A stretch of DNA of 56,718 nt, counting the filler, from Sphacelaria rigidula (taxonomy: Eukaryota), in the NCBI GenBank assembly GCA_964200075.2. It is 6 parts of 6 records of this genome, joined end to end, with 100 filler letters (N's around TTAATTAATTAA, not from the genome) between each part and the next. Parts side by side here need not be neighbours in the genome. Positions count along the whole stretch, not along the records: positions 28,411 to 37,780 come from CAXNAA020008660.1; 5 more parts are not named here. The stretch is one strand, 5' to 3'. How positions within the stretch are numbered: the stretch's first letter is position 1; the number at the start of each line of letters is the position of its first letter. A program made the translations under genes and the position numbers. The notes under the pieces were generated by a model. That model did not search any database, was not told the DNA's origin, and was given only the letters and a program-made list of their open reading frames with translations. Below are positions 9,371-56,718 of the stretch, in pieces.

Positions 9371-9470
9371 NNNNNNNNNNNNNNNNNNNNNNNNNNNNNN
9401 NNNNNNNNNNNNNNTTAATTAATTAANNNNNNNNNNNNNNNNNNNNNNNNNNNNNNNNNNNNNNNNNNNN
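9371..9470. other. Artificial contig spacer (N44-TTAATTAATTAA-N44); also at 18841-18940, 28311-28410, 37781-37880, 47250-47349
   Basis: An identical 100-bp construct with a six-frame stop linker occurs five times at ~9470-bp intervals. Confidence 0.98.
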
Positions 9471-11259: not shown

Positions 11260-12030
11260 GCGGTCGGAGGTGTCGGCCACACTCTCGATTTTTTCCGCGA
11301 CACTTGTGAAGCTGTCGGTGACACTTCCGACGCTGTCTGCGACGCGGCCGACACTGCCGCCGACACTTGCGACACCGTCTGCAGTAATGGAACTGTCGGA
11401 ACTGACGACGCCGTCGGCGGCACCATCTCAACTCTTAGCGGCACTGTCGAAAATGTCGGAACTGTCGACGACGACATTGTCGGCGTGTGACCGATAGCAC
11501 CAGCTGTGTCTGTCACCAACAGCCCCGACAGCTCCGACAGCTCCGACAGCTCCGATGATGTCGGGTTAGAGTTCGGGGCATGGGTGTACGATTAGGATTA
11601 ATGAGTGTCGGCGATAGTGTTGGCGACAGTGACGGAAGTGTCGTCGACAGTGCCAAATGTATGTGTCGTTCATATTCCCGACAGTGTTAGTGGATGTAGC
11701 AGCAACAGTTTCGATGGTGTCAACGACAGTCGGATGTGTCAGGGCGACGGTTTCCGCAGTGGCGGCGACACAGTCGAAATTATTACCGACACTCGTGCAG
11801 CTGTCAGCCACTTCGCCTAATGACGCTGGGCGCGGAAATGACGAATGGTGGGCAAGTCTCTACAGTGTCGTCGACATTGTTGAAACCGTCGCTCTGACAC
11901 ATCCGACACTGCCCCTGACACCGTCGGCACTGTCGCCGACGCTGTCGCCGACGCTTGTGACGCCATCGCCGACGCTTTTGGTACAGTCACCGACACTCGA
12001 CCCCAACCCTAACACTAACCCCAACCCTCT
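11260..12030. repeat. Degenerate GTCGGCG/CCGACAC array with foldback structure and telomere-like ends
   Basis: 11711-11772 is an inverted copy of 11863-11927. GGGTTAG-like sequence lies at ~11563 and AACCCTAACACTAACCCCAACCCT at 12005-12028. Confidence 0.65.
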
Positions 12031-18721: not shown

Positions 18722-19083
18722 TGGGGGAGGGGGGGGGGGCGTACTCATTTGTTGCTTGCCTTAGTCATTTGACCATTGACCACTCATGGGGGAGGGGGGG
18801 GGCGTACTCATTTGTTGCTTGCCTTAGTCGTTCGACCATTNNNNNNNNNNNNNNNNNNNNNNNNNNNNNNNNNNNNNNNNNNNNTTAATTAATTAANNNN
18901 NNNNNNNNNNNNNNNNNNNNNNNNNNNNNNNNNNNNNNNNTTGCCTTAGTCATTTGACCATTGACCACGCATCCCTTTCGAGACGGAGCACCGTTCCTAC
19001 TCCTAATAGAGGGGGGGGTACTCATTTGTTGCTTGCACTAGTCGTTTGACCATTGACCACGCATCCTTTTCGAGACGGAGCAA
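18722..19083 (-). mobile_element. Stacks of short LINE 3'-end fragments on either side of a spacer
   Basis: Repeated G-run + GTACTCATTTGTTGCTTGCCTTAGTC...GACCATTGACCAC, matching the 3' end of the LINE at 51718. Confidence 0.8.
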
Positions 19084-19095
19084 ACCCGATGGGGG

Positions 19096-19576
19096 GTACT
19101 CATCATGATTCTGCATGCCGTAGTCATATGACCATTGACCTCGCATCCCTACAAAGCCGGTTTTCGCTGAACCAGGCTCGCGATTACCAAGCGCGAAGCG
19201 CCGTAGTTTGTTCTGCCAATCATATCAAGGGTGAGCTACATCCTGCTTAGATTGTTCAGCCCGAAACGTACTGAATGTCTTGCATTTGGATGATAGCTTC
19301 GAATGTGTTGCTTCATTCTCTGGTATCGCCACTTCCAGAGACAGCCACGGCTTACACACTGCCTCATGGGTGTCTCACCGTGTCAACACCACGTACGATC
19401 ATCCCCATTGCGCCAAGCTCGGGTTCTCCCACCCCGCACAATATGCCCTAGCTCGACCACCATCATGGCTACCGCAATAAAAACGCATGCGCGCGAAAAA
19501 AAGTCGGTGACCTGGTTGCCTAGCTTTCGAAGTGAGTTGCGTGTTTTACAGCGTCGTTGCCAACCGACGCCAACCC
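19096..19576 (-). mobile_element. SINE family B (~480 bp), full-length copy
   Basis: It shares the 5' end GGGTTGGCGTCGGTTGGC and the LINE-like 3' end ...GAGTAC+C-run with copies at 22309, 28411 and 55980. Confidence 0.8.
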
Positions 19577-20671
19577 TCAAGGGGGGACGGAGTGGGATCA
19601 GTGTTCATACATTTTTGTATGATACTAAGGGAACGGAAACCATAAAGTAACTTGCTTGTTAACTGAAAGCAGTGTTGTTACCGTTTCCCTGGGTGTAGCA
19701 TGTTCGTGCTGCTGTGCCGCAGGATGTTGGGTATTGTACCCTCGGGCCCAACAGCATGCACATTTTTTTTTATTTCTCCAATACGTTTATTACCGCTCCA
19801 GAACATAGGATACCCTTTTGTTATGCCCGGCGATACTGCCTGTAAAAAAATGTGTCATTTTCGCTTTGTGTTGGAGCGACTTCTCAACATTTAAAGGAAT
19901 CAAGGGAAATAAAACCACGGGATTCATTCCTGGGCGAAAGGGCTAGGGGGCGGGGGAGGAGGTGTACTCATGATTATGGGGAAGGGGGGCAGGGGGGTTA
20001 GGTATGTCGCTACAGTATTTATTTTGTACAAAATAAGCGTGCGAATGAAAACGAATATGTTTCACTCCTTGCAACGAGCAGAAACACACCGAAATCTGAA
20101 ACTCGACTCTTACTCGATTCCGATGGAACTAGCTACCCTTTTGACCACCATCCACCCAAAATTGCAGGACCGCCATCGAGGTCCCCATGTTCCCTGGGGT
20201 TGTGTATCCCGAAAACTAGTCATAATCTATTTTTTCGTTTTGTTTGCGAGGGTTGAAAACGTCTTTCCCTCGATAACTCTACAATCTTCGTGCTCTTGTT
20301 TTGCCCCCCGGTGGTGTGAGTCAGGAAATGGTTTGCAAATGCCATATTGGTACACCCCCCCACCCACCCCGAGTACACCCCCCCCACCCCGCGCTTATGA
20401 CTACGGCATGCAAGATCATGAGTGCACCCCCCCGCGCGCACCCCTCCCTCTCTCCGCGCTCTCTGTTGTGGGGGAGATTACAACTTGTCCCATCTTCGGG
20501 GTCGGGTTTTTACATGATTGTCCGCGTAATATACCCCATATCTTCATATGCGCATACATGGTATGTATTGCATTGGTACAACAATATACCGCAAACATCC
20601 TACGCCTATACATGCATACCTACGTTTCCTTATTATCTTGTGCGCACTCACTGACTTATTTGTTATGTTAG

Positions 20672-22177: not shown

Positions 22178-22308
22178 TGGCTCGCATCAATGCAACCTTG
22201 GTTTTTTCATTCTTTGCTTTTTAGTTGGCTTGGGGTGGCTTGAATCCTTTCCGCGACGTTCAATTTTCGTGATCAGTGTGTATTTGGGCGGGGGGGGGAG
22301 GGGGGGGA

Positions 22309-22797
22309 TACTCACGATTGTACATACCGTAGTCATGGGGCCATTCACTTCGGACCCCTAAAACGACGGAGCACGTCGGGTTTTCGCCGGACCGGGCTCG
22401 CAATCACCAAGCGCGAAGCGCCGTGATGTGTTCGGCCAGTCACATGAGGGTGATCTGCATCCTTCAAGAATTATTTGACCGGAAGCGTACTATTTATCTT
22501 GCGTATGAATGGCAGCCTGAAATGGGCTGCTTCATCTTGTGGTCTCACCACTTCCAGAGACAGCCACGAGTTCCACACCGCCTCACGGGTGTCTCGCCCT
22601 TCAAACACGACGTAATACGATCATCCTCTTTGCGCGGAGGTGAGGTTTTCCCACCCCGCACAGGATGATGTAGCTCGACCACCATCACGACTGTACCGCA
22701 GAAAGCCGCAAGCGCGAGAAAAATACAGCAACCTGGTTGCCGAGCTCACGCGGTGTGTCGCGCGTTTCACAGCGTCGTTGCCAACCGACGCCAACCC
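22309..22797 (-). mobile_element. SINE family B, full-length copy
   Basis: Homologous over its full length to 19096-19576 and flanked by G-runs. Confidence 0.8.
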
Positions 22798-22938
22798 TTG
22801 AAGGTGTACGTGGGGCGGGCGGGCGGGAGGGGAGGGGAGGGGGGAGGGGGGAAAAGGCGGTCAGTTGTGGAAAATATTTTCACGTGTCTGAAGCCTTCAA
22901 ATATTGATTATGATCGATAGCTCTTGTTATTTTTCCTC

Positions 22939-23494: not shown

Positions 23495-23734
23495 AGACAT
23501 GCCATCGTGTCTTTAGTCGCTCTCTTTTGCCTTTTGCCTTTTGCCAGTTTTTCCCAGACCACGTCGAAACAGAACAGGGATAAGTTGTGTAAAGGCTTTC
23601 TGTGTAATGTATGGAAGAAGCGTGATGGGCGCCCAAATGTTGGAGGTGTCCATCAAGAGTAGGAACGGTGTTCCGCCTCGAAAGGGGTGCGTGGTCAATG
23701 GTCAAGCGACTAAGGCAAGCAACAAGTGCGTACG
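23495..23734 (+). mobile_element. 5'-truncated LINE 3' fragment in an Exo84 intron
   Basis: It encodes ...RNGVPPRKGCVVNGQATKASNK like the end of the 51718 LINE, and its 3' end abuts CCC. Confidence 0.85.
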
Positions 23735-25393: not shown

Positions 25394-25831
25394 GTGAGAG
25401 ACGGGGGGAAGGGGTGTACTCATGATCATGCATGCCATAGTCACAAGACCATTGAGAAGGGGGCGTACTCATTTGTTGCTTGCCTTAGTCGTGTGACCAT
25501 TGACCACGCATCCCTTTCGAGACGGAGCATTGAAGCATTGAGAAGGGGGGGGGGCGAGAGGGAGACAACAAGGGAGATGGGGAGGTAAAAGCGGGCCGAG
25601 TTAATTTTTGTCTTCATTTCTGTCCATCATGTAGCTTCAGTACGCGGGATCGTCTTCTCTCAAGCGTTCTATTACAGCGGTTGATTGCGACAGTACGTTG
25701 AAATCATCTGCTCACCCCTTGTTCTATGTCTTGTTGTTGGTGTTGATGGTTGTGCATCTTGCCCTCCCCTTTTGACAATGTGTGGTTCACTTGGACGTCA
25801 TTTTTGTGTTTGTTTCCTCCCCTGTTTTTTC

Positions 25832-26066
25832 CAAGGGTCTACACGTGACACTCACTACGTGTCACGTCGTGTCACGTTTCACGTCAAAAGTTAAACCAGG
25901 CTAGTACTACGGTGGGGGACCACGTGGGGAGCCCTGATTTGACTTGACTTTTGAACAGGGCTCCCCAGGTGGTTCCTATCCCCCACCGTAGTACAAGCCC
26001 GGCTTAACTTTCGACGTGAAACGTAACACGACGTGAGATGTACCGAGTGTTACGTGTAGACCCTTG
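25832..26066. mobile_element. Foldback MITE
   Basis: Inverted arms of ~100 bp (CAAGGGTCTACACGT...ACGTGTAGACCCTTG) and a perfect 8-bp TSD GTTTTTTC. Confidence 0.9.
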
Positions 26067-26418
26067 GTTTTTTCGTCTTTTGCGAGTGTTTTCTCTTCAT
26101 GCCTCGCTGTCTTGTGTTTCGTTCGTCTTTCGCGTCGTGATTTGTCTGTTTTTCAGTGTGTCATCGTCGCTGTCGTTTTACTTGCCTGATTTTTTTTTTT
26201 TTAATGTGTATATACATCTTCATCGCTGTTCCTTGTCTTTATGCTGTTCTTGGAGACATTCTTGCCACTTGATGATTATTATTGTTCTCTCATTACTCCT
26301 CTCCTCACCTCTCCTCTCCTCTTCTCTTATTTTCTATGTTTCCCCGCGTACTTCGTTTGTCTGTGTTCGCTTTCAATGGTTGGTACTTCTCTCGTATCTC
26401 CAGTGTAATATCTATATA

Positions 26419-27569: not shown

Positions 27570-28410
27570 TGGCATCTCCATAGCACCAACCATTGTTTAC
27601 GTACATTTCCTCAAGCCCCCTCGGTGAAGTACTCGTGCAGGGATGCATCCTTGTCACAAGGACATTCTTGCGCCGGTACTTCACACAGGTGCATATTTTG
27701 AGGAAACTCTCTGTTACGGGTTGCATGACCACGGGGATTTGGTCACCCCCCTGCGCTTGTCGAGCACAGCTGACCGACAGCGAGGACGTTTGCCCACGTG
27801 TGTGCCTTGTTCAAGTCGCCAACAGCTCATTGCACGGACTTAGTTTTGCTGGTGACTAAGGCCAAGGCAATGTTTCAATTGTTTTCAACTACTTTGCTTT
27901 CATGTTCTCGTGACATTCGCTACACAACCGCTGTCTTCGTACTCCCGAATCAACGAGAACGCAAAGAAATACCCCGCCATGAACAGGCTTTTGTGGTTCG
28001 GGTTCTTGTTTGAAGTTTTCCATGATGGGGCTTTTCTGGTTCGGGATCGACACCCCGCAAAAAAGAGCCAGTGTGGGCGACTTTCGATGGCCAGAACACG
28101 CGCCACAGGTATCAGATGACACCCATACCTGAAAGGTAATGTACCGCTGCACCTTCTTCGCGCACTGCAAAAGAAGGCGCGTGATAAGATGCCTTGCCGC
28201 CTGAGGAAACGCGGCAAAAGTGGTGAGAGAAGTGAAATGATACATGTACATACTTCCTCTGTCCCATAAGTCTGTATCGTTATGTTTGTACGAGCCCTTA
28301 ACGATGTCCGNNNNNNNNNNNNNNNNNNNNNNNNNNNNNNNNNNNNNNNNNNNNTTAATTAATTAANNNNNNNNNNNNNNNNNNNNNNNNNNNNNNNNNN
28401 NNNNNNNNNN

Positions 28411-30738: not shown

Positions 30739-31799
30739 GAGTCATTCCACGATAGGGGTCCCACGTTTGGGCCCAGATCTTTCTCGCTGAGGGGGTCCTA
30801 GAGTAGGAGCTACACAATGAATACGGGTGAGGATATTCCCCTTTTAAAATTGGTTCAAGATATCCCTACGAGTAGCCCATTGGAACCCTGATCTTGGCGT
30901 GCTCTCACATGTTCCATAAGCTTCTCTCGGGTGAGATAAAGCAACAGGATGAAGGACTCCGAATTTACCCAAGCCTGATGGATATTTTGTTCGCCCTTAC
31001 CATGACATGACTATTTACCAATGAATACATTTTGCCTAGGATAACCCCTGCCTCCCCCCCCCTCTTCCCACACACACTGCGACGAGCCTGGTGGGGCGAA
31101 AACCCGGCGTGCTCCGCCTCGGCTTTGTAGGGATGCAAGCTCAACGATCTCATGCCTGTGGCATGCAAGACTATGAGCACACCCCTTTTTAGTGCTCCGT
31201 CTCGAAAGGGATGCGTGGTCAACGGTCAAACGATCAAGGCACGCAATAAATGAGTACTAACCCCCCCTCAGACTGCAACCACCATCACTCTCCCCTTGAT
31301 TCTTGGGTCTGCCCTGGGTTAGCTTTCGGAATTATATAGGGTCTTTTTGACAAAAAAAAACAAAATGCACAAGTGTATGTGTCCAAGGTTGTGTTCTGTG
31401 CCCTACACCAGCTGAAATTATTTCGGGTATATATCCACACACATAAAAAATGAGGGTACTTACGTCAAGTATAAAATAAATTAGGTGTTTTATCGGTAAA
31501 CGCCCTTCCGAACCATACCGGATTGTTCGGAACGGGGCCCGTTAACCCTGCCGAACCACACCAGAATCTTCGACACATATTCCGGTATGGTTCAGTATGT
31601 GAACCATTTTCCGGTATGGTTCGGTATACGAACCAAGAAATCAACCACTTTCGGGTACACACCATCTAGACAAAACACAACCTTGCATGTGTCATTCAAC
31701 CATGATTTTTTCTCGTTTTTCACTATAGCGACCGGTTGACGTAAACCCGTCCTGCCTTCGCGCTCGTAAAAGTCACAACAGAACACCCAACGCGCTCAC

Positions 31800-31967: not shown

Positions 31968-34070
31968 CTGTGACTGGCCGAATCATCGGGAGCGGCCCGG
32001 GGGTGCGGAGAGAACAAGTGGAAAAAACAACAACAACGACGAAACTGTCATTTTCGAGAAAGCACACGTTTTTTTTCATCGAGTGTTCTGTTCACATAAG
32101 AGGGGATTATTATCTGAAAATGCGCGTGTTTCTCCAGAACTTTTTTTTTTCTCGTTCTCTCACACTCAACACTGTGTATGATGCCGTCCCTCCCTCTTTC
32201 CCCCCTTCTTCGTGACTAGAGATGGGCACCGGATAACAAAAACAAAAAGAGCGGGTACCGGATAAGAGGCGTTATTCTCAAGGCTCAATCTCACATCTCC
32301 GCACCAGTGCAGTACCGGTCGAACTTGACAGCACGGTGGCTGGTGACAACAATTTTATTGTGAAATAGGAAATGGTATTGATGATTACTTGAACAGCTGC
32401 AGCTGTTCAAATCTGGCACCCAACTCTAGCCAGCACAGGGTGTCGAAAGGAAAAACTATAGTAGTAAATTGGGCACCTTAACGGTTCATTTAGCAATTTC
32501 TTCGTCACTGGCGATTTTCTTGGGCTCTTTCGCTTACCACCTCTCATCACATTGGGGATCTGAAGATACTTGTATCCACTCCACGTGCCAATATATATAT
32601 ATATAGATGTACTGCACTCGATATTGAGTGACTTACGGGCTGACCAGTCATCGGGGGGCCCTGCCACTTTTCAGCCCAGATTCTGACTCTTCGGTATTTT
32701 CGGTCGATCGAGTCTGTCCCGATCGTATTTGTGAAGGAAATGTACAGGCTTGTTTTTTGAAAATTCCACATACTCATTGCACTAGAGCCGAATAAATGTG
32801 CTTCACGGTCAATAAAACCCTCCTGATAAACGGGGTATCTACTCGTATCGTCCGATAACACCAATTAACATCAACTTGGGCACTGTGTTTTGAGGACGAT
32901 CTGCTTATTTTACCAAGATCTACCGACGCTAGCTCTTTTGAGTTCTATCGAAGAGTAGTACGCGAGAAAAATCCCCAAAACAATCCTGAGCAGTTCGGGC
33001 GCCCAGTACTGTATGCACCCCACACCCTGCCGGCCCTTGCAACCCAATGCCCGAAAATACGAGGAAGGAGCAGGGGTCATGCCATTCCTCAACTTCAAAC
33101 TTCGCAATTGAACCGGTTAAACCCGCTCACCGAAAAAATCGGTTTAACCGCCATAATAACGCCTCCTTTTCCCGTTTCCCGGTTAAACCGGGGGAAAAAA
33201 ATCCGGTTTGTTTTCTTCAGAACCATAACCGGTAAACGGTTATTGGGGTTTCCAAGAAACGGTTACAACCGTTTTTTGTCACTTCCCCAAAGGCAGATGC
33301 CGTCAAAAATATGTGCATCGTTTGTTGACACCACAGCAGCGAGAGAGCAGTGGGTGGAGTTGATCCCTTGAGGCTACGGACTCACTCCTCCCGAGCAAGG
33401 GAAGGAGTTCCAAAAAAGGATGAAAATACGAACAAAGAACCAAACAAGAATAATAGAAAATAATAGAAAACTAAGGAAAGAATTTAAAAAAAATGAGAAA
33501 AAGAGGTAGATATGGGACGACGATTGACCTGCTTGACACACCTTCGATATCGTTGCAAGGCCCTTGTGGAGTTTCGGCTAGGGAGGGTGGGAGGTAGTGG
33601 GGGGGGGTGTACTCATGATCTTGCATACCTTAGTCATATGACCATTGATCTCGCATCCCTACAAAGCCGGGACGGAGCACGCCAGGTTTTCACCCGACCA
33701 GGCTCGCGGTGGGGTAGGGGGGTGTACCTGAGCGATGTCAAAAACTATTCATCTAGAAGCCCGTGACTGCCGAGGCGTGTGGAATGGCTGCAGCATGGCG
33801 AGCTGCGGTCGCCGTGGGTACAGACGTGTAACTGGGAAGGTCTTTGTGTGCTGGTAATATGTTAAAATCCCAGAAAACATGAAAATCAGGGAAAGTCAAA
33901 GGAAAATAAATGAAATCACGATATAATACACGGGAAAACAAAACAACACACACTGAATTATGACCTACTCAAAAACGCCGTGGGAGGGTAGAAGGGAGGG
34001 AAGGGAGTGAAAGGGGGGGAAGGAAAGGGTATCTCCGCAAGCACTCTCGCGGTCCATCATCGTTCATCAC

Positions 34071-35716: not shown

Positions 35717-36048
35717 GACACTTTCCACGATAGCCCCCCCTCAGAAAAGTGCTCCGTCTCGAAAGGGATGCGTGGTCAATGGTCACACGACTAAGGCAAG
35801 CAACAAATGAGTACGCCCTCAGAAAAGTGCCTGGTTTGGGGAGGCAATATCTTCACGGAAACCGAAATTGAAAAAGCGGAGCACGACGAGCAGCTGGGAA
35901 TTCCCACATTTGGGTTTGTTTTCGCCAATTTTACTCATACGAGGCCCTTCATGCAGCCTGAACCCAAACATTAGGCGCTGTATGTCCATTTTTTTCGTGA
36001 CACTTTTGGGCTGGTTCGGAGGGAAGGGGGGCTATCGTAAAAAGTGTC
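35717..36048. mobile_element. MITE with GACACTTT..ACGATAGCCCCCC TIRs carrying a nested 63-bp LINE 3' insert (35753-35815)
   Basis: 23-bp TIRs flanked by ATCT on both sides. The nested insert has a 15-bp TSD CCCTCAGAAAAGTGC. A related copy lies at 51489-51715. Confidence 0.8.
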
Positions 36049-36292
36049 ATCTCAGGATGATAAAATTTGGGACAGTTCAGTATAGCACAGTAGTCGCGGT
36101 CGCGCCAATAGTGCTGTAGTACATGGGCGTGGTCAACAAACGCAGCTCTTGTTCCGGAACAACCGAACGGGATGGTGTATTCGATGGGGGAAGGGGGGGG
36201 GGGGGGGGGGGGAGACACGCCCAGTGGGGGGGGCGGGGGGGGGGGGATNNNNNNNNTCCGCGCCTGTTGTTGTGGAGGCTGGGGGGGGTTGG

Positions 36293-36327
<35 letters not shown>

Positions 36328-37929
36328 ATACGCCATCAGTGGGGCGTGCGGTGCGGTGCGGATGTGGCCGCGTCGGGTTGACTTGGTGCTTCAATTTTGT
36401 TCTGACTTTGACGGAAATTTCCCACCGCACCCCCGCAGCTAACGGAGCAGAGCGAACACAAGTTGATACACACGCACAAGACCAGTAAGCAGCATGGAAC
36501 CGAAGCGACGAGCTTATCCCGGTCATAAGCCCCTGTTGCCCAAGCGGAAGCTCGTGACGTTAAGAGTTGGGGGAGGAAGGACGACCTCGGTCGGCTTTCG
36601 CACTCTGCACATTCAGGCAAAAAAAAAACTCACAATCCCACCCACACTCAACTATGTCAGGCTGCGACAGTCAGTCGGGCCTATCGGTCAAACCTCACAG
36701 CTAAGAATTCGTTTCAGCGCCCACCTGATCCACTAGCGGTCATCTACGCCTACTCTTGCTACACTCCAATAGTGTCATCCTCCAAAAACTGGCGGGACTC
36801 TTAGAGGCCGGATTCTCGGAACAGACGGCCGCGGGTGCTCAGAGTGTTCGTAGCTTGTGGATCTAGAAAATTTTGTTTTGTTAAAACGAGTGATGTTTGT
36901 TTTGGATATTCCAGTCCGCCACGCTCTGCATAATATTGATTGAACCTCCATCTGTGCAATATTGTGGACAATACATGTCCCTGCAGTATGTGTATTTAGT
37001 GATGCGCATCGTATCCTCAATCTCGACACGTCTGGGATATACTGTATCGACATCGCCTCAAACTGCACGAATTCTAGGTAGCATATCGTACCTTGCGATA
37101 CATCGTGCGATACGTGATATTTCCCACGATATATTAAGATTCAAGATACGATATGTGCAGTTTTACGTGCGAAAATCAAGTTGGTTACAGGTTATCGATG
37201 CTTTGGAGAATTTTGAAGGCCAATATGCCCATGTCGTATCCTTTATCATGCGATTTCACGCGATATGATATATCGGATATCGTGTCGATATCGCGATTTT
37301 ATCATCTATAAACATCACTAGTATCGTTCTTAAAAAATATCCCGAGTCGAAAAGATTCCGAATCTCCGCCACAGCAACGAGAGAGAAAAAAAAAAGGGAG
37401 GGAGATGACAGCGCGTTCATGAAGTAGGCAGCAGTTACTCATCCCATCATAATCTCCGATCCTACTTCCTGTCCGACACACCAACAAAAGCTAACATTCG
37501 TGTGTGAAACACGCGTGTGTACGTTTTCAATGACAAACGCGGGGAGGGGGGGAGCGTGCTCATTTGTTGCTTGCCTCAGTCGTTTGACCATTAACCACGC
37601 ATCTCTTTCGAGACGGGGCACCGTTCCTACTCCGAGAAGACGGGGGCGTGGGGGGGTGTTCGTGATCATGCATGCCATAGTCATATCACTGTCGACCTCG
37701 CATCCCTACAAAGCCGGGACGGAGCGCGCAGGTTTTCGCCGGACCAGGCTCGCACTCAAGCACCAAGTGCGAAGCGCCGTNNNNNNNNNNNNNNNNNNNN
37801 NNNNNNNNNNNNNNNNNNNNNNNNTTAATTAATTAANNNNNNNNNNNNNNNNNNNNNNNNNNNNNNNNNNNNNNNNNNNNGTCAGCGCTGACTGATCAGT
37901 AGTCTAGTTGGTTGTCTCTTAAACCGTCA

Positions 37930-40315
37930 CAGACACGTCCAACATGAAGGTGCTCATTGCGTTTCCATACCTTACACACAAAAACCTTTCACATATCTCA
38001 TCCCCGTCCTCTTTCGCCGTCTGTGGCCACCATCAACCTCCTTGTTTAACCATCGTTTCCTCCCTACTGTTTAATGCATCAAACGATTCCATGCCATCTT
38101 CGTTCACGTCCCGCATTTTTCCCTCTAGCACGTTCCGCTCCTCCTCGTGAAGTTCACATTCTGCAACCATATGACTTTTGCTTTCTACTGCTTTGCCCCA
38201 GGGGCAGTTGTGTGCATCTACTTATTTCTCCACACGACTGCTGATATATCTCTTTCTTCTTTCTGGCATGTCCAGGTCTCCCACCCGAGATCGCAGTTTC
38301 ATATTTTTCGCCGTGTCCATTGGGCCATGCAGATATGTTTTCATCCCGATCCCCTCTCTCAACCCCCAATATATCTTCAGGTTTTCTTCCTCGTCTCCTT
38401 TGCGTCTAAGCGCTCTTTTTCCCCCTTACTTTCACCATGTATATTACTTTTGTCTTGTATCCTTCGCCTTCATCTATTGACAGTATTTGTCTTGGTTTCC
38501 TCCAATCTCCTTCCATATTTTCTCGACTTCTTCATCCCACCTTATTCCAGCATGCCCTTTCGTACTTTTCTTTCATACGGCCCTATCAACTATAGCTGGC
38601 AATCTCTTTCTCTGCCTGTTTTTACGCTATGCTGCCGCCTCAATTTCCTCATGTCTATGTTTGTTTTGAGTGAGTACATTCCCAACTCTGCTCTCAATGC
38701 TGTATTTCTCGTCGGTTTCGAGCATCCCAGTATCTTCTTAGCTGCTGCCATCGGTACTGTTTCCAACTTCTTCGCCAAGTTCACGTTCCCCTCCCACATT
38801 TCTCCTGCATATTTCAGCTTTGGTACAATCACGTTCATCAGGATACATCTGTTAATTCTAGCGTCTAGATGCGAGTCTCCGAGGATCACGTCCATCCTGC
38901 CTATTTGTGCCTCACCCTTTTCTATTACTTTGTTCGTGTGTACATCCCAAGAGCAGTTTCTTGAGATCTCTACGCCGAGGTGTGTATAGTGGTCTAGCAT
39001 CGGCAGTTCCTCTTTCACCCACTTCCATTTGAACTCTACCGGATTTTTTTCATCTTCGTTACAGACAAGTACCGCGCATGTGTTACTGTTCGCTGTACTC
39101 CAGAGCCTTTTCTATTCGTTTTTACAGTCCTTCTGCTGTTCCTGAGATCCCCACAAAATCATCTGCGAACATCAAACCCGATATCATATCTTCACCCGCC
39201 TTGATTCCTTGATTTGCTGTTGTTTAGTTGATATCAGGTCATTGATAAATACCTTGAACAAAGCGGGTGATGACGTACATCCTTGCGCAACTCCTTTCAG
39301 AATACCAAAATATTTGGATATTTCTCCTTCTAGCATCATGACACTTTTGGCACACTCTATCATCTTCTTCACCATTCTCCACATCTTTCCTCTAATCCCA
39401 GCTCCCCACAACGTTTCCTACAGCCCATTTTTCCATACTGTTGCCATAAGCCTTCTGCACGTCCAGAAAGAAACAGTACCTTGTCAGCCCGGCGTATTTC
39501 CTACCGTGAATAATGTTACCTAGTGTATACAGCGTTTTTCTTGGGTACGTCCATCGTGAGACCACCGCTGGACCCCGGGGGGGTCAGTCAAAGTGCGACA
39601 AAAGAAACAAATCATCAAATACACATGGCATGCGCAAGTACAGTTTGGTCCGAAACCTATTTGTCCCTCGCTGATTTTTCGCCCTCTTCTGGCATCGTTC
39701 CTACTTCATCATTCGGAATCTTATAGAACGTTTTCCCTACCGTGCTCAGTAGCGTTATCCCTCTATAGTTCCCAGGGTCAGTCTTGTCTCTTTTTGTTTA
39801 TTTGTTCACGGTTAGGACGAATCATCACGGGTTCGAGTCACCAAATCTACGATTTCTTCGACCTGATTGCCCAAAAGGGAGAAAATAGTTGACCGCTGGT
39901 CCACGGGGTATCCACGCAACGTTTGCGCCATTCCACGTGCCTGGGCTGCGTGTACCTGGGTTCCAACGCTGAAAACAAAGCCTAGGTATTGACTCGTACG
40001 ATTCGAATCAATTACACGAAAACCAAGTAATTTCCAGACGGATCATTGATCTGTCCGACCCTTGACTTTGTTAACGACTACTCCTCCTTTTCACCTCTTT
40101 CTTGGAGGTGTACTCGTTTTCCCAGATCCAGTTGTGCAGCATAACCATCATGATAATCATTCCCTTCCCCCCGTGCTTTAGAAATTCATTCAGCATTCCG
40201 TCCGCCCCTGCTGCCTTTTCGTTCTCGAGGCTAGGTACGCACTCTTTTACTTCATCTCTGGTAAGTTCTCTCTGTAATTCTCTCGAGCCACTATCCTCCC
40301 GATTCATACGGAGAG
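37930..40315 (-). pseudogene. Non-LTR retrotransposon (LINE) RT fragment, degenerate
   Basis: Motifs KAAGADG, NYRGITLLST, GVAQGC.SSP.LF.VFINDL, GLMFADD, YTHLGV, LRAELG, and a C-terminal CPW...H...C. Interrupted at ~39532-39618 and 39807-40064. Confidence 0.92.
39807..40064. mobile_element. MITE inserted in the LINE RT
   Basis: TIRs CACGGTTAGGAC...GTCCGACCCTTG with an imperfect 8-bp TSD (TATTTGTT/ACTTTGTT). It splits the VVN|LFKKGDK-equivalent region. Confidence 0.8.
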
Positions 40316-40542: not shown

Positions 40543-40712
40543 CACACCTTGGACAATATATGGTCAATAGATGCAATAGACGAAAAGTGTACTGCATAAA
40601 GTATAGGTCTATTGCGACTATCGTCGGCCGGCAATAGTTACAATAGGCCTACACTTTATGCAGTACACTTTTCGTCTATTGCATCTATTGACCATATATT
40701 GTCCGGGGTGTG
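40543..40712. mobile_element. Foldback MITE (CACACCCTGGACAA family)
   Basis: Near-perfect inverted arms of ~70 bp and a perfect 8-bp TSD CATGATTT. Confidence 0.92.
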
Positions 40713-43338: not shown

Positions 43339-44012
43339 GATTCAACCTATAATGGTGATTTATACCAATATTCTTGTTCTTGCCCTCCATCCTATAAAAG
43401 AGGCGGTTCATGAAATGATATCTCTATATGGTCAATACTCGTGCGGATATCGGATTCAAAGCACAACCGCCAGAGCTCCTACACTGCGAAGTGGAACCTG
43501 AATCAGGCGATCGGGAATCGAATACCCCGCTTAGTTGTGGATGCACACCGTGACCCCCCGCGCCCCCGCCCCCCCTCTACCCAAAGCGCGCAGGGGGTGA
43601 TCGCGAGCCTGTTTCAGCGAAAATCCGTCGTGTTCCGTCCCAGTTTTGTAGGGATGCGAGGTCAACGGTCTCATGACTACGGCATGCAAGATCAAGAGTA
43701 AACCCCAAAGTGCACAGGCAGGGATGTACGGACATATTTCGGAGCGGGGCCGTCTCGATCACCACGGGTACTCTACGCTCAAGCAGTAGAGTTCATCTGC
43801 CGACAACAAAAAACAAGATGTGGCTCGTTTGAAGGGCGATCCTCCCGAGATCTTTCGAATTTGGCGCACCACTTTTGTCAGCACTTTTTCAGCACTGTTG
43901 TTACCGAAAAAAAACCGCGGCAGCTAAAATGTACCAAGCCCCGCCCCGAAGGGCGTTCTGACTGACCGTTGCAGCGGAGGTCAACTACGGTGGATAAGCA
44001 CACCTGGTGACA

Positions 44013-44312: not shown

Positions 44313-44877
44313 CAGCAGCCCTTTTTCTGCGAGCTTCCCCACCTTTCTGCATAATCATGATCATGCACTTTCACGCCTTCTGAATACAGTTCTGCAATCT
44401 GGTTTTGCTGGGCGCTTGCCTGACTCAAACAATACCTCGGCAGTCTTCGAACCGTGTTCATACCACCCGGACCAGTTGAACCCAACGACTGTAGGGCACA
44501 CTGTGGACTAGACAGGTGCAACAGCAACACTTGACCGTTTGAACACCCTAGGATTATGTTCCGAGATTACGTTCACTAACAGTGCCGCGGAAGACTGGCG
44601 TTTTTTTCTTCATCTAGATGGACGATACGATGCAAACTGAATTTTTTCAGCCAATAAGCGTGCAGCACCATTTTGCGATGGTTGAGCGAGGCGGGTGCGC
44701 CATTTTCGTCTTCCGTTCAAAAATTTATCGTGTGTTTTGCCAGCGTCAGCAGTATCAGAGCAATGGCCACATCCGCACACCTTGCTACCCACCATGGAAG
44801 CACTTGAAGACAGATGCGAATGCTGCCGGGGGACACTTGCTGGCAATAGGGGTTTGTCGGGGGCAGAGGGGGTGGGG

Positions 44878-44992
44878 GTACTCATGATCTTGTATGCCGT
44901 AGTCTCGAGACCGTTGACCTCGCATCCCCTACAAAGCCGGGATGGAGCACGCCGGGTTTTCGCTGGACCAGGCTCGCAATCAGGCACCAAGC
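44878..44992 (-). mobile_element. 5'-truncated SINE family B copy
   Basis: G-run + GTACTCATGATCTTG...CATCCCCTACAAAGCCGGGATGGAGCAC. Similar fragments lie at about 20395, 25414, 31083, 33611, 37658, 43600 and 47185. Confidence 0.8.
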
Positions 44993-46639
44993 GACAAGAG
45001 TTTGTGAGGTTACCGCCACGGTTTTTATGCGCGTTGCTTGTGGGTGTTTCGACTCATGGTGCTTGACTTACTGCATTGGCTGCTGGGAGATGGGTGGGGG
45101 GAAATCGCAAATATTTTGCACAATAAAACAGAATCACCACCCAACCACAGCCCGCGCCTGCAGCACATGCATTGCCCAGCAAACACGCTGTCATTGATCC
45201 GTTCAGAAGTAACTACTTTCGTCGACCACATACTGTACTGGCACTATATTTTTAGTGCTACCACTTGTTGTCCTGAGGCGGTGAAGTGTTGCTGATCGCG
45301 GCTTGTGCAGCACTAACTATGATGCGGAGCACATGGAGGTGATGACGTTTCCCACTCTCTGTCTGCATGTGATTTTCAGGCCGTTTTGAACGATACGTGT
45401 ACAAATCGACGCTTTCCATCCACGTTTCCATTTTGCACTCGGGCAAACGAGAAAATAACAATGTCAGGCTATAATAAACGCTCTGAGGCCCACGTAAGTG
45501 GTACACATCCGATTACATCGAGTCATGTCAGTATCGCCACCGCCCTATAACATCATGACTCTCTCAAATACAGCAAAATCATTTTCGGCAAATCGTGTAG
45601 TCATGGTGTGTGTAGCACCAGGGCTGCGTGTCCCAACTGCGCGCAACCAACAGCAGCGGCTGATATTGAAGGGTTCCTAATTTCCAATTTGTGAACGGTA
45701 ATGAATAACGCCTCGGGCAAAGCTTCACGCACGTCCCCAACAGTGAATAAATAAATTGGAAAACGTGCGTGGAAACTACAGATATGGATTATATATATAT
45801 ATATATATATTCTTTTTCGCGTCTTCAACGGTTCACTCTCGGACCACGTCAAGGTTCGCACAGTGCGGCCGGCGCAACCGCTCTAATACTGGATTTAGAC
45901 TGCTGTGGAAGCCCACGAAATTTGACTTTTGGAGTCCAACACGCCCGATCTACAGCAGCAGCACACGACAACAAAGCCATAGCCGAACATACTGTAGAGA
46001 AGCATGGAAGCTGCACAGCCCGTTGACAGACATGGTCCACAACAAAGGTTAAGGAGGATGTTACCACAAAAAGCGGCGAAACAGCAGTCATCCACACACA
46101 GCACACGGCAGCAGACAGCAGTAGGGTTGTCAATTCACCGCTGCGCACGTTTGCGGCTTCGTAAAAACGACCTAAAGGGTTAAATAAGCTATATGGGTGT
46201 CCTAGGGGCGTACTAGGCCTTCGATTTCCGAGAGAGAGACTTCGCGGTCGCATTTTTCAGGTTTCAAATGCGCCTCAGTAGGGTCCCGGTATAAACCCCA
46301 CGCACACGCCCAAACGCATGTAGAGGGGCCCACACAGGTGTATCCGAGGCCAGTCACGGCATATTATCGACTCATACACTACTGGCGAGTGCGTTCGCTA
46401 AGTTTGTACTCCAATTAGTATCAGGTGAAGAAGAAACTGTTGCTATCCTAGGACCGGCCCGAAAATATGGATATGCGTGCGTTTTGCGATCCGATGGCGA
46501 CAGTATCTAGCATATGGCCTCGAGACAAAAAGACGGCGTGGAATATAACCTCAAGTACAATGCTACGAGATCACATTGACCCCAAAACATCAGAAAGTTA
46601 CAGTATTTCCCGTAGGCGGCATCGCGCGTGTTTATGCTG

Positions 46640-51717: not shown

Positions 51718-54170
51718 CGTACACATTTGTTGCTTGCCTCAGCCGTTTGACCATTGACCACGAGACCCTTTCGAGGCGGAGCACCGTTCCTACTCCTAAT
51801 AGAGACACGTCCAATATTCAGGCGCCCATTACGTTCCTCCCATGCATTACACAAAAGCCGTTTACATATCTTATCCCCGTCCTGTTTCGCCGTTTGTGTC
51901 CACCATTTATATCCTAGTATAGCTATTGTTTTCTCCCTACTGTCTAATGCATCAAACGATTTCATGCCACCTTCGTTCACGTCCCGCATTTCCCCCTCTA
52001 GCACGTCCCGTTTTTCCTTGAATAGTTCACATTTTCCCACCATACGACTTCTGCTCTCTATTGCTTTGCCACAGGGGCAATTCTGTCCATTTACTTCCTC
52101 CCCCTCTCGACGACTGGTGAATATCTTTCTTCTTTCTGGCAGGTCCAGGTCCCCCACCCGAAATCGTAGTTTCAAAATGTTCGCCGCGTCCATTGGGCCA
52201 TGCAGATATGCTTTCATCCCTATCCCCTCTCGCAACCGCCCGTATATCTTCAGGTGTTTTTCTTCGTCTACTTTGCGTCTGAGCGCTCCTTTTCCCCGAA
52301 TTTCTACCATGTCTCTTACTTTTGTCTTGTACCGGGCGCCTTCACCTATGGACAATATTTCGTCTCGATTTCCTCCTATCTCCTTCCATACACTTCTCCA
52401 CTTCTTCATCCCCCCTTATTCCAGCCCGCCCTTTCATAATTTCTTCCATACAATCCTGTCAACTATGGCCCGCAATCACTTTCTCTGCATGTTCTTTAAG
52501 CTATATTGCCATCGCATTTTTCTCATCTCTCTGCTAGATTTAAGTGAGTACATTGCCAACTCTGCTCTCAACGCTGTATTGCTCGTCGTTTTCGAGCCTC
52601 CAAGTATTTTCTTAGCTGCTGCTCTCTGTACTGTTTCCAACTTCTTCACCAGCTTCACGTTCCCCTCCCATGCTTCTCCTGCATATTCCAGCTTTGGTAC
52701 AGTCACCTTTATCAGAATATATTTCATAATCCTAGTGTCTAGATGCAAGTCTCTGATGATCACGTCCATCCTGCCTATCTGTGCCTCATCCTTTTCTATT
52801 ACTTTGTTTATGTGTGCATCCCAGAAACGGTTTTGTGAGATCTCTACGCCAAGGTATGTGTACTGGTGTACGATCGGCAGTTCCTCTTCTCCCCACTTCT
52901 TTACAGACAGGTACCACGCACTTGTTGACATTCGCTGTCACTCTCCATTTTCTCGTGTTTTCTAGTGTCTTGTCTATTTGTTTCTGTAATCCTTCTGGTG
53001 TTTCTAAAATCCCCGCAATATCATCCGCAAACATCAATCCTGATACCATATCTTTACCCATCTTGACTCCTTGCTTTGCTGCTTCTATCGTCAATATCAG
53101 GTCATGAATGGATACTTTGAATAAGGTAGGTGATAACGTACATCCATGTACAACTCCTTGTAAATATAAGACCTGTTTCGATATTCCCCGTCTACAGTGG
53201 CATCATGGCACTTTTGGCACATTCTGCCATCTTCTTTACCATCTTCACATCTTTCGTCTGATCCCAGTTTCCCACAACGTTTTTTCACAGCCCATTTCTC
53301 CATACTGTGTCATAAGTCTTTTGCATGCCCAGAAAGAAACAGTACGTGGTCAGCCCGGTGTCTTTCCTACGCTGAATAATCTTACCTAGTGTGTACACAT
53401 GGTCTACGCAACTACGGCTTGGTCTTAACCCTGCTTGCTCCTCGCTGATTTTCTATTCCTTTTATAGCATCGTTCCTACTCTATCGTTCAGAACCTTACG
53501 GATTGTTTTCCCTACCGTGCTCAGTAGCGTTATCCCTCTATAATTTCCTGGGTCAGCCTTGTCTCCTTTTAAAAAAGGGTTGACGATTCCTTCTTCTCTC
53601 CACCTCTGGCGTGTGTAATCGTTTTCCAGATCCAAATATACAGCATAACCACCATGGTTATCATTCCCTCTCCTCCGTACTTCAGAAACTCATTCACTAT
53701 TCCGCCTGCCCCTGCTGTCTTCCTGTTCTTGAGTTTAGCTACGCACTCCTTTACTTCATCTCTGGTGAACTCTCTCTGCAATTCCTTCGAGCCTCTATCC
53801 TCCCGTTCTGACGTCTTTACATTTGCCTCTGCCCGCGCGTTGATTTATTTTTCGAATTACATGTCGAACTCCGTGGTTGGTTTAGGTGTTTCTAATTTAC
53901 GGTAGTGCTCGACTAGGACTTCTCTCTTCCCCTTTGAACTTCTGAACATTTTCCTGTTTTGTGTCCGGAGTGTCGCTATTCCCGTGTCTATCTTTCCTGC
54001 CTGGTTTCTCGTTATCTCCTTTATCCCTACCCACATTTGTTTCATCCCGCCAACGAAATCTTCATTTGTTTTATTCACTATATCTTCCGATCTTCCCTTC
54101 TTTTTCTGCTGTACCATTTTCTTTACTTCCGTTCGAGCTTTCGTATACTACTCCCATCTTACCGTAGTTT
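51718..54170 (-). pseudogene. LINE, 5'-truncated and degenerate: RT plus C-terminal zinc knuckle, intact 3' end
   Basis: Motifs KTAGAGG, PGNYRGITLLST, EEQAGLR, GLMFADD, YTYLGV, LRAEL, KLRFRVG and CPCGKAIE...C. It ends ...ASNK just before GTACGCG + C-run. Same family as 37930-40315. The clade cannot be resolved by eye. Confidence 0.93.
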
Positions 54171-55229
54171 TACTCGATATGCATCTCGCGTGGGCAGCTC
54201 TCCTTACTCTTCAAGCTGCGAGTGGGCGCTAGAATGTGCATGTCGTACGCGCTGAGTTCGAGACAACCTTCCCCCCCGCCCTCCCGGACGATGAGATAAA
54301 CATATCTCCTCCCCAAACACCCTCACCCCCGCAGTGTTTTTTCACGTACTGTACTAGTCGTGTGTGGACGGACTACATGATGCTGTGAAGGCATGAGGGG
54401 TATGGTCTAAACATCTATACCCTTTCTATGTACTTCTCGAATGCTCAGCAGCACGACCATTCGTCTACAACAGGACAAAGCGGTGTATACCACGCTCGGG
54501 GACGGCTACTTCCCTATTCCCGTAAAGCCCATAGGCCCAATCTCCATATGCCGCATTACCAGCGCAGTGAAGATGCTTTTTTATGTAGTTGTACGTACCA
54601 TGCAGTGAAATATCGACTCTCGATGAGGCCTTCAGTGTACCTCAACAGCCAAAACGCGAGAGGGGCAACAGTAGCCGTCAGTTGGTCTAAATTCAAATAA
54701 ATTGGTGCGGACCTGTTAGCCCAAACGCTGAAACTTCATTATTTGGCGATGAAGAAGCGTTGCTTCACCCGATTCGGCCGCAAGGTTTTCCTATTCCCAC
54801 TATTCATAACACGACAGCGCAGCGGATGAGATTGCCGGACTGCCTTTTTGATGGCCCGTCTTGAATATCCCGAACCGTTTGTAGGGGTAGAGTCCCCTGA
54901 GAAGAGGTCCCAGAGTCTTTTGGAAATAAAACGCCCTGAGCTCGCTCAAACAGAGGCTCTGGTTGTAAGGTATTTCGTCAGCTGCTGCACCTCGTGGCAG
55001 TGTGCACAGGTTTCACTACAGTAAGACGTTTGACTTGGTGCGATGTGGAAGTCAATGCAGGATGCACAACAAGGAGGAAGCCATTACCCACAATCAAGGC
55101 TAACCGGTGTGAACTCGGCTTATTTCGTGGAAATGAGAAGAAAGAGAGTGTTCGAGACTGTCGAATAGGCCAAAGCTATGACTTGAGGCGACCCAAACCG
55201 AAGTGACAAGCCAGGAAGCTCGTGTCATC

Positions 55230-55954
55230 TTATCTCAGGAAGATACATCCGACACGTATCGTCATCGGTCAACACCAAGAGGACTCAGAAACGAACAAAT
55301 AGCAAGACGCGATAATGTCCACAGGTGAAAGTGGGGGTCACAGTACAAAAGTAAGAGGCATACTTGAAGGAAAACGAAGCGTTGAGACGGAATGTAGACG
55401 AGGAAGAGAACCTGAAGGTATAGAGGGAGCTAAGACAGGGGATAGGGATAAAAGCATATCTGCATAGCCCAACGAACTCCGCGAAAAAAAGGAAACTGCG
55501 ATTTCAGGTGGGGGACCTGGACCTGCCAGAGGGAAGAAAAAGATATACCAGGATGATAGTCGAGAGGAGAAGGATATCGATGCACAGAACTACCCCTGTG
55601 GCGAAGAAGTAGAGAGTAGAACTCGTAAATTGGCATAATGTGAACTGTACAATGAGTATAGGGACGAGCTAGGAGGGGAAGTGCGGGAAGTAAACGAAGG
55701 TGGCATGAAATCGTTTGATGCATCATTAGACAGTAGGGAGAAAACGATGGCTATACTAGGGGATAAAAGGTGGCCACGGACGGCGGAACAGGACGGGATA
55801 AGATGTATAAAAAGTTTGTTTGTAATGTATCGAAGAAGCGCAAAGAGCGCCAGAATGTTGGAGGTGTCTCTATTAGGAGGACGAACGGTGCTCCATCTCG
55901 AAAGGGATACGTGATCAATGGTCGAACGACTACGGCAAGCAACAAATGAATACG
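55230..55954 (+). mobile_element. LINE 3' fragment, same family
   Basis: REVNEGGMKSFDASLDSREKTMAILGDKRW. It ends GCAACAAATGAATACG + C7. Confidence 0.88.
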
Positions 55955-55979
55955 CCCCCCCGCCCGTCGCCTCCCCTAT

Positions 55980-56479
55980 GGGGTTGGCGTTAGTAGGCAA
56001 TGGCGCTGTAAGACACGCCACTCACTGCGTAAGCTAGGCAACCAGGTTACCGTTTGTTTGCGCGCTTGCGTTTTTTTTGCGGTAACCATGACGGTAGCCG
56101 AGCTACGTCATATTGTGCGAGGTGGGAGAAATTCAGTTCCGCGCAATGGGTATACATAGTACATGGTGTTTAAATGGTAAGACACCCATGAGGCAGTGTG
56201 TAACCCGTGACAGTCTCTGGAAGTAGCGATGTCAGATAACAAAGCAACTCATTGTAGCCTGTCATTCAAATGCAAGATGATCAGTACGCTTCGGGCCGAA
56301 CCATCTCAGCAGGATGCAGCTCTTCCTCCATGCCACTCGCCGAACACATCACGGCGCTTCGCGCTTGGTGACTGAATGCGAGCCTGGTCCGGCGAAAACC
56401 CGTCGTGCTCCGTCCCGGCTTTGTAGGGATGCCAGGTCAGTGGACATACGACTGCGGCATGCAAGATCATGATGAGTAC
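55980..56479 (+). mobile_element. SINE family B, full-length copy; a further partial copy at 56519-56718
   Basis: Starts GGGGTTGGCGTTAGTAGGC and ends GATGAGTAC + C-run. GGGTTAGGATTAGGGTTAGGGTTA separates it from the next copy. Confidence 0.85.
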
Positions 56480-56718
56480 CCCCCCCACACACACAGGGTT
56501 AGGATTAGGGTTAGGGTTACACCCATGAGGCAGTGTATAAGCCATGGCTGTCTCTGGAAGTCGCGATACCAGATAGTAAAGCAACTCACTGTAGGCTGTC
56601 ACCCAAATGCAAGATAATCAGTACGCTTCAGGCCGAACAATCTTAGCAGGATGCAGCTCACCCTTCATGCGACTCGCCGAACACACCACGGCGCTACGCG
56701 CTCGGTGATTGAGTGGGA

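What the first reader, a model, noticed from the sequence alone, without database searches (positions are those of the whole stretch)
35738..35830. LINE/SINE pair that ends in and targets C/G-runs instead of using poly(A)
Seen: over 15 LINE and SINE-B 3' ends terminate GAGTAC(A/G) directly into a C-run (e.g. 18740, 19018, 19096, 22309, 25414, 25465, 33611, 35815, 37557, 44878, 51718, 55954, 56479). None has a poly(A) tail. The 63-bp insert at 35753-35815 has a 15-bp TSD starting with CCC. The insert at ~25464-25536 has the TSD CATTGAGAAGGGGG, with the G-run at the element's 3' junction. Established: 5' truncation plus TSD is the signature of target-primed reverse transcription, usually primed at T-rich sites or simple-repeat tails. 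Inference: this family nicks or primes at G-runs, and it may seed or extend the many poly-G/C tracts in this genome.
Basis: partly seen in the sequence, partly recalled or inferred. Interest (0 to 1): 0.75.

Follow-up and report, generated by a model that had tools for sequence, protein, structure and literature searches.

The report
C-tailed LINE inserting at G/C runs
A jumping gene of a brown alga, and its short parasite, end in a run of C instead of poly(A) and insert at existing C/G runs, as already noted for related Ectocarpus elements, but about half of its recent copies are cut to almost exactly the last 66 bases, which I found nowhere described.

Summary
Observation confirmed. The element is a 5.9-kb single-ORF APE-endonuclease/RT LINE, probably of a brown alga, with a 510-570-bp non-autonomous partner. 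113 of 140 LINE 3' ends run into >=3 C (background 1.7%); 1 of 140 is A-rich. The C's come from both sides. 90 of 110 short copies have CCCC just 5' of the element (background 7.9%), and 29 of 29 empty paralogues of the focal site carry a C-run. 18 of 52 TSD-bearing copies also gained up to 10 pure C. Best model: oligo(C) RNA tail primed by a nick in a G-run. This is not new: Ectocarpus RTEX-1/2/N1 are listed with '(C)n 3'' and 'C-rich' TSDs (PMC12477816, Suppl. 3). The claim that it makes the genome's G/C tracts is weak: 6 of 159 runs in 200 kb adjoin element ends. Not found in print: 77 of 131 sampled recent LINE copies end 60-72 nt from the 3' end, mode exactly -66, inside coding sequence. 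The partner also has discrete 5' ends.

The parts
35734..35740 (+). Target C7 run (G7 on the nicked strand); the TSD starts inside it
35738..35752 (+). Left 15-bp TSD; last 3-4 nt are microhomology with the element 5' end
35750..35815 (+). 66-nt LINE 3' module: last codons of the ORF, stop codon 5 nt before the end, two hairpins
35816..35830 (+). Right 15-bp TSD
35717..36051 (.). Host MITE-like repeat with inverted ends whose left end holds the C-run (3281 first-look candidates in G000)
25464..25529 (-). 66-nt LINE module, with 6 extra nt (25530-25535) that partly repeat the TSD end
25450..25463 (-). 3' copy of the 14-bp TSD (other copy 25536-25549, inside a G10 run)
19018..19082 (-). 65-66-nt LINE module between a SINE tail and another LINE end
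31192..31257 (+). 66-67-nt LINE module inserted behind the C-run of a SINE end
51718..54211 (-). 5'-truncated, decayed LINE copy, 2.5 kb, RT region (Pfam RVT_1 E 3.6e-9); 3' end at the same MITE C-run
37931..40304 (-). Decayed, interrupted LINE copy
55303..55954 (+). LINE 3' 650 nt ending in a C-run, followed directly by a SINE
23561..23734 (+). LINE 3' 170 nt ending at the same MITE C-run
37555..37633 (-). LINE 3' 79 nt behind a SINE tail
18740..18840 (-). Two LINE ends in tandem at a contig edge with a repeated C-rich flank
19098..19585 (-). Non-autonomous partner (SINE-like), ~510-nt class
22307..22825 (-). Non-autonomous partner, ~500-nt class
55961..56477 (+). Non-autonomous partner, ~510-nt class, in the C-tail of a LINE
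33608..33707 (-). Partner, ~100-nt class; other short partner copies at 31083-31181, 43598-43702, 44877-44993, 37655-37780
25415..25455 (-). Partner, 41-nt stub

Best explanation
A stringent-type LINE with one APE-endonuclease/RT ORF, of the lineage called RTEX-1/2 in Ectocarpus, moves by target-primed reverse transcription with C in the role that A plays for L1. (1) The protein binds a hairpin module in the last ~66 nt of its RNA, inside the coding sequence; the partner carries an 82% identical copy (binding inferred). (2) The G-rich strand is nicked in or at a G-run, mostly >=5 G (position shown by TSDs; enzyme preference inferred). (3) The freed G-ended primer pairs with an oligo(C) RNA end; unpaired tail C's are copied and lengthen the run (extra C's shown; RNA tail inferred). 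(4) A second nick about 14 nt away gives TSDs of 7-23 nt that begin with C (shown). (5) In about half of recent events cDNA ends at -66 (range -62 to -70), a few nt past the module (shown); most likely the RT lets go once it has copied through its own binding site, or the RNA was trimmed to that edge. (6) Every new tail is a new target, which builds head-to-tail clusters (shown).
For: 3' C-runs in 113 of 140 vs 1.7%. TSD in 52 of 110 vs 2.3 with swapped flanks; C fraction peaks 9-14 nt 5' of the element; 16 TSDs start inside a longer run, 3 at its edge, 18 have extra pure C, 15 extra mixed C-rich letters. Target use rises with run length: 35 of 52 at runs >=5; runs of 5 about 34x and of 10+ about 340x the rate of runs of 3 (small counts). 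Empty paralogous sites 29 of 29. Intact relatives P0001 (72% identity) and P0002 are single ORFs with Exo_endo_phos and RVT_1 and end in the same peptide; the P0002 cluster holds Ectocarpus proteins. 4 of 4 relatives from other collections end GAGTACG + C-run. 58 head-to-tail junctions genome-wide; 4 of 10 inspected show a TSD remainder. In the RTE group the tail nucleotide matches the first TSD nucleotide (PMC6007223 abstract and passages).
Against: No RNA evidence for a C-tail. Homopolymer lengths drift after insertion and in short-read assembly; 21 of 52 junction runs are shorter than the target run. 58 of 110 copies gave no exact TSD, and 5 of 52 TSDs do not start with C. The module folds no better than shuffles (z -0.15, -0.78, +1.48) and the long-range closing stem is absent from the centroid. 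The partner carries the same module but has 0 of 79 ends at 58-77 nt, which a pure 'release after the module' model does not predict. Genomic data cannot separate endonuclease preference from selection by pairing.
Confidence: 0.8

Rival explanations
1. The endonuclease has little sequence preference; only nicks next to a G-run can pair with the C tail and be extended, so pairing alone selects the target.
For: Smooth rise of target use with run length; no fixed motif upstream of the TSD, and no T-stretch at -10 as in RTE proper, in 41 sites; PMC6007223 allows either role for the tail.
Against: 16 of 52 TSDs start inside a longer run, which means G|G bonds are cut; this fits both models and does not exclude this one.
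Confidence: 0.4
2. The RNA has no real C-tail: all C's are target-derived, and extra C's come from RT stuttering on the primer or from later slippage.
For: 19 of 52 TSD copies have no extra C; 15 have mixed C-rich extras that look like repeated priming.
Against: Runs of 4-5 C became 10-15 C at the 3' junction in five copies (L199, L201, L203, L212, L174), too much for slippage of short runs; any read-through transcript of a copy includes the flanking C-run.
Confidence: 0.15
3. The 66-nt class is copied from a discrete short RNA with a defined 5' end (cut, or trimmed 5'->3' to the protein-bound edge), not from premature RT release.
For: Sharp edge: match to consensus 0.38 at -67, 0.74 at -66, 0.95 at -64; 28 of 58 tandem junctions start at -66 (counted by eye); extra or blunt 5' joints in 31 of 52; one copy joined exactly to the end of a tRNA-like head (L015); the partner has several sharp classes (90-105, 300-307, 500-512, 547-561 nt); short copies are less diverged (0.62 vs 1.93 mismatches per 25 nt).
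Against: 9 of 52 joints have >=3 nt microhomology; no Rfam ribozyme or tRNA match; no tRNA-like fold; young long copies are under-assembled, which biases the age comparison.
Confidence: 0.3
4. The 66-nt class is one separate short non-autonomous family (a SINE with a head I missed, or a single short master).
For: Low divergence of the short copies.
Against: Left flanks are unique apart from copies behind other elements' tails and two pairs in shared repeats; the peak recurs in two sequence variants (38 of 66 and 39 of 65), one of them shared with a long subfamily; the tRNA-like head belongs to another SINE.
Confidence: 0.1
5. The 66-nt peak is an assembly or sampling artefact caused by collapse of young long copies.
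For: 14 of 145 copies are cut by contig ends; 80 regions were picked away from ends; by eye about 20 of the 100 rows listed have their 5' side at a contig end.
Against: With all 14 edge copies counted as long, 77 of 120 at risk end at 60-72 nt (0.049 per nt vs 0.003 and 0.006 in the flanking bins); short copies have their own TSDs; contigs of four other runs show loose ends at 35750 with C-rich flanks (217, 180, 45, 43 contigs). Collapse lowers the share but cannot create the peak.
Confidence: 0.03

Closest known systems
RTEX-1_Ec32, RTEX-2_Ec32 and RTEX-N1/N2_Ec32 of Ectocarpus sp. 7 (PMC12477816, Suppl. Material 3 rows and Results section)
   Same: Single EN-RT ORF, 5.5-5.9 kb, '(C)n 3'', TSD 'C-rich'; ~600-bp partner sharing '60 bp 3' end 83%' (here 54 of 66 nt, 82%), head weakly homologous to the LINE 5' end, 'can be present in tandem'.
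   Different: Another genome (244 Mb). The parts of the paper I saw give no junction analysis, no tail-versus-target test, no 66-nt class and no note that the module lies in coding sequence. Its FASTA supplements could not be read, so no direct alignment.
RTE-clade LINEs and their SINEs (PMC6007223)
   Same: No poly(A); tail nucleotide equals first TSD nucleotide; LINE/SINE pairs share 3' ends.
   Different: Tails there are (GTT)n, (CAA)n or T-rich, and TSDs start with T or A about 10 nt after a T-stretch; here the tail is C and no T-stretch was seen. Green-algal RTEX tails are (CA)n, (CAA)n, (CCAT)n and others (PMC3747384 Table 3).
Mammalian L1/Alu
   Same: Homopolymer tail paired with a complementary homopolymer primer (TT|AAAA, as cited in PMC6007223), ~15-bp TSD (PMC4245944 abstract), insertion into earlier tails.
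   Different: C/G instead of A/T; stringent 3' recognition; one ORF; sharp truncation class, whereas L1 truncation is broad (recalled).

Membership tests
Non-LTR retrotransposon (TPRT) | RT of non-LTR type | tested here: met
   RVT_1 E 5.4e-21; best PDB matches R2 and L1 ORF2
Non-LTR retrotransposon (TPRT) | Fixed 3' end, variable 5' truncation, variable-length TSD | tested here: met
APE-type LINE | N-terminal APE endonuclease | tested here: met
   Intact relatives Exo_endo_phos E 3e-12 and 8e-15; decayed own copy only E 0.0076; the same motifs are visible in own-genome frames
Ectocarpus RTEX-1/2 lineage | Single EN-RT ORF, 5.5-5.9 kb | tested here: met
   ~5.9 kb with 5' tandem repeats; relatives are 1328-1360-aa single ORFs. 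No intact ORF was seen in G000 copies.
Ectocarpus RTEX-1/2 lineage | (C)n 3' end and C-rich TSD | tested here: met
Ectocarpus RTEX-1/2 lineage | Sequence homology to the published consensus | not testable with these tools
   FASTA supplements unreadable; indirect: Ectocarpus proteins at 59% identity and in the P0002 cluster
RTEX-N1-type non-autonomous element | ~600 bp, ~60-bp 3' end shared with the LINE, head like the LINE 5' end | tested here: met
   568-nt reconstruction, 82% over 66 nt, head 79-88% to the LINE 5' end
RTE-X clade | Placement of the RT in the RTEX clade on a tree with reference elements | not testable with these tools
   No clade-labelled reference RTs were obtained; the label rests on the paper's blastp assignment
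True SINE (Pol III) | tRNA, 5S or 7SL-derived head | tested here: not met
   No Rfam match in three partner loci; head is LINE-derived. It works like a SINE but is not filed as one.
RTE-clade insertion signature | T-stretch about 10 nt upstream of a TSD starting with T or A | tested here: not met
   41 sites, no T peak at -10

The most novel reading that the evidence does not exclude
The 66-nt copies come from a discrete, promoterless RNA: the RT-bound 3' module plus oligo(C), trimmed out of LINE or host-intron transcripts much as a snoRNA is. Any short copy could then serve as a template, a self-renewing 66-nt retroposon that lands in G-runs, builds its own targets and decoys the LINE's RT.
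Probability: 0.22. Interest if true: 0.7.

Novelty: new member of a known kind. Interest (0 to 1): 0.4.

Why it matters
The C-tail and C-rich TSD are already recorded for this lineage, though in what I saw only as table entries. What this adds is testable detail. The family is a natural C/G mirror of the L1 poly(A)/T-run system, suited to asking whether target choice lies in the endonuclease or in tail pairing. It also has a sharp, recurring truncation point at the edge of a 66-nt recognition module that lies inside coding sequence. Since the cause of LINE 5' truncation is an open question (recalled), a family with a nucleotide-sharp mode makes it directly testable and defines a minimal cis element for RT-based insertion.

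Tried and rejected
A tRNA-headed SINE as source of the 66-nt class: the head in L015 belongs to a different SINE family, and only L015 among the head matches shown joins it to the module; many young head copies end at contig breaks. G-quadruplex targeting: 4 of 52 sites vs 58 of 1234 control runs. Ribozyme or known RNA family in the partner, module or LINE head: nothing near gathering score. A tRNA-like fold or stable closing stem: not supported. A 122-127-nt length class: artefact of a 21-bp duplication in a long subfamily; the step at 1180 nt is likewise taken as a gap in my working consensus. Template jumping as cause of tandems: only about 4-5 of 58 spacers are pure C, and nested insertion explains those inspected. 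Expression: no RNA holder listed; contigs cannot show RNA ends. An empty allele of the exact locus: joints across it are best read as paralogous MITE copies. Collection scans: 3 of 13 metagenome hits and 1 of 4 genome hits were relatives, the rest had no tblastn match to the proteins tried; 0 in viral contigs. Literature searches for a C-tail mechanism or a fixed truncation point (search listings only) gave nothing beyond PMC12477816; subscription papers and Repbase were not searchable.

Full report
OBSERVATION. The two TSDs are exact. The window holds 20 distinct LINE or partner 3' ends, all with at least three C's starting within 3 nt and none with poly(A); 6 of them have the exact GAGTAC(A/G). 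The window is six contigs of about 9370 bp joined by N-linkers, from a 244-Mb assembly. The nearest named proteins are from Ectocarpus, so I infer a brown alga. Exact 34-mers of the LINE end occur 232 and 1068 times in the genome and a 28-mer of the partner end 187 times.

WHAT IT IS. Near-complete copies (L223, L226, L234) give an element of about 5.9 kb: a short head, 63-bp tandem repeats, then endonuclease, RT and a Cys/His motif region. All G000 copies seen are decayed. Intact relatives P0001 (1360 aa, 72% identity over the query) and P0002 (1328 aa) are single ORFs with APE endonuclease and RT domains; the P0002 cluster includes Ectocarpus proteins. The ORF stops 5 nt before the 3' end, and relatives end in the same peptide, so the end shared with the partner is coding sequence. 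The partner is 510-570 nt, has a head like the LINE's 5' end, an internal direct repeat of about 60 nt, and a 3' end identical at 54 of 66 nt. It has no tRNA head.

TAIL OR TARGET. I took 145 LINE and 30 partner copies by exact pattern, so that selection did not depend on the flanks: the 90 loci returned, 80 further places of the 140 LINE rows listed without loci (chosen away from contig ends), and matches in other fetched DNA. Of 140 LINE ends with 25 clean nt behind them, 113 continue with >=3 C and 1 is A-rich; background is 1.7%. Of 110 LINE copies under 115 nt and not at an edge, 52 have an exact TSD of 7-23 nt (median 13-14), against 2.3 with swapped flanks. 90 of 110 have CCCC within 30 nt 5' of the element (background 7.9%; GGGG 4 of 110), with the C fraction peaking 9-14 nt upstream. 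So the run pre-existed. The focal site confirms this: it lies in the end of a MITE-like repeat, and 29 of 29 other copies carry C4-C18 there. Two more LINE ends in the window abut the same repeat. Target use rises steeply with run length, and G4-like context is not enriched. The element also adds C: of 52 TSD copies, 16 start inside a longer run without extras, 3 match the run, 18 gained 1-10 pure C and 15 gained mixed C-rich letters. Four relatives from other collections (72-97% protein identity to the proteins above) all end in GAGTACG plus a C-run (3 of 13 hits; 1 of 4). 58 head-to-tail junctions show insertion into earlier tails.

SOURCE OF THE G/C TRACTS. Each insertion duplicates a run; the 3' run is longer in 26, shorter in 21 and equal in 5 of 52. 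But only 19 of 76 runs of >=6 in the window and 6 of 159 in 200 kb from long contigs lie at element ends; for >=10 it is 2 of 14 and 1 of 24. Old, unrecognisable copies could raise this. The element exploits the tracts more than it explains them.

THE 66-NT CLASS. Of 131 copies not at an edge, 21 end at 35-47 nt, 4 at 48-59, 77 at 60-72, 10 at 73-110 and 19 are longer. With the 14 edge copies counted as long, the rate is 0.049 per nt in the peak against 0.003 and 0.006 beside it. Edge copies are under-sampled: about 20 of 100 rows, by eye, have their 5' side at a contig end and may be long, so 'about half' is the fair share. Match to the consensus rises from 0.38 at -67 to 0.74 at -66 and 0.95 at -64. 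In the 58 tandem junctions the start is -65 in 8, -66 in 28, -67 to -70 in 20 and longer in 2 (by eye; the pattern requires at least -65 and limits longer copies). Contigs of four public runs show loose ends at the same base with C-rich flanks. The peak recurs in two sequence variants, and left flanks are mostly unique. The focal insert belongs to this class. The module holds two hairpins in the centroid fold, and the first is kept through changes in the partner and in L252. Against a strong structure: folding z-scores are -0.15, -0.78 and +1.48, and a possible closing stem that starts at -66 is not in the centroid. The partner has 0 of 79 ends at 58-77 nt but its own clusters at 26-48 (20), 90-105 (14), 300-307 (9), 500-512 (10) and 547-561 (6). 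5' joints are mixed: 18 with extra letters, 13 blunt, 21 with microhomology, 9 of these >=3 nt, in line with the two joining types in PMC4245944 (abstract only).

MECHANISM. Shown: run-specific targets, C-initial TSDs, added C's, self-targeting, the -66 mode. Inferred: nick in the G-run by the APE domain, pairing with an oligo(C) RNA end, binding of the module. Overall TPRT model 0.8. For the -66 mode I put RT release or stalling past the bound module at about 0.55, a pre-trimmed RNA at 0.3, a single short master at 0.1 and artefact at under 0.05.

WHAT IS KNOWN. PMC12477816 (Results section 5 part 1, passages, and rows of Supplementary Materials 3 and 4) lists RTEX-1 '(C)n 3'', RTEX-2 '(C)n termini/TSD', TSDs 'C-rich', and RTEX-N1 of about 600 bp with a '60 bp 3' end 83%' like the LINEs, a head weakly like RTEX-2 and tandem copies. 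Its main text has no hit for 'C-rich' or 'homopolymer'. Its FASTA supplements could not be read and may show more, including short families. PMC6007223 (abstract and passages) gives the tail-equals-TSD rule for RTE. PMC3747384 (passages, Table 3) lists other RTEX tails. PMC11203168 (passages) groups RTE with RTEX. The element works like L1 with C for A and meets every tested feature of the Ectocarpus RTEX-1/2/N1 description; RTE-X clade membership by tree was not tested. Searches found no account of the junction mechanism or of a fixed truncation point; subscription papers and Repbase lie outside them.

VERDICT. A real feature, a new member of a known kind. The headline trait is in print as a table entry; the junction analysis and the 66-nt class are the additions. 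Interest 0.4.

Noticed in passing
window 9371-9470, 18841-18940, 28311-28410, 37781-37880, 47250-47349: The window is six unrelated contigs joined by N-linkers; adjacency across these is not real.
   Followed up: yes
window 35717-36051; also next to 23734 and 51718; L030: A high-copy MITE-like repeat with a C-run in its inverted end is hit independently by LINE copies of different lengths.
   Followed up: partly
L015 1500-1640: A chimera: the 72-nt tRNA-like head of another SINE family (1160 first-look candidates) joined exactly to the 66-nt module, possibly by template switch.
   Followed up: partly
P0010, P0014, P0015, P0064, P0075, P0080, P0091: Distant relatives (~50% identity, long unnamed contigs) keep a GCV(V/A)(N/D)G motif 7 residues before the stop; a frameshifted one ends FEYYYY, hinting at the same GAGTAC end with a TAC/TAT-type tail. 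No DNA was obtained.
   Followed up: partly
L223 393-940; L226 858-1220; L046 4509-5087: The LINE 5' region carries 63-bp tandem repeats that form an open frame of 21-residue repeats.
   Followed up: no
L024, L035, L036, L144, L155-L157, L165, L183, L184: A LINE subfamily with a 21-bp in-frame tandem duplication about 125 nt from the 3' end.
   Followed up: partly
L098, L106, L116, L117, L013, L034: The longest partner class begins with a copy of its own sub-terminal ~60 nt, in which the first hairpin is an 8-bp stem.
   Followed up: partly
L309: A contig of a bacterial MAG holds this algal-type LINE end (84% protein identity to P0001), probably binning contamination.
   Followed up: no
window 2900-8500 (-): Decayed LTR-retrotransposon-like pol region; integrase rve E 5.3e-9.
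   Followed up: no
window 11702-11936, 25831-26067, 40543-40712, 750-1021: Self-inverted repeats of 170-280 bp, probably MITEs.
   Followed up: no
window 56495-56520: A few telomere-like GGGTTA units follow the C-run of the partner copy ending at 56477.
   Followed up: no
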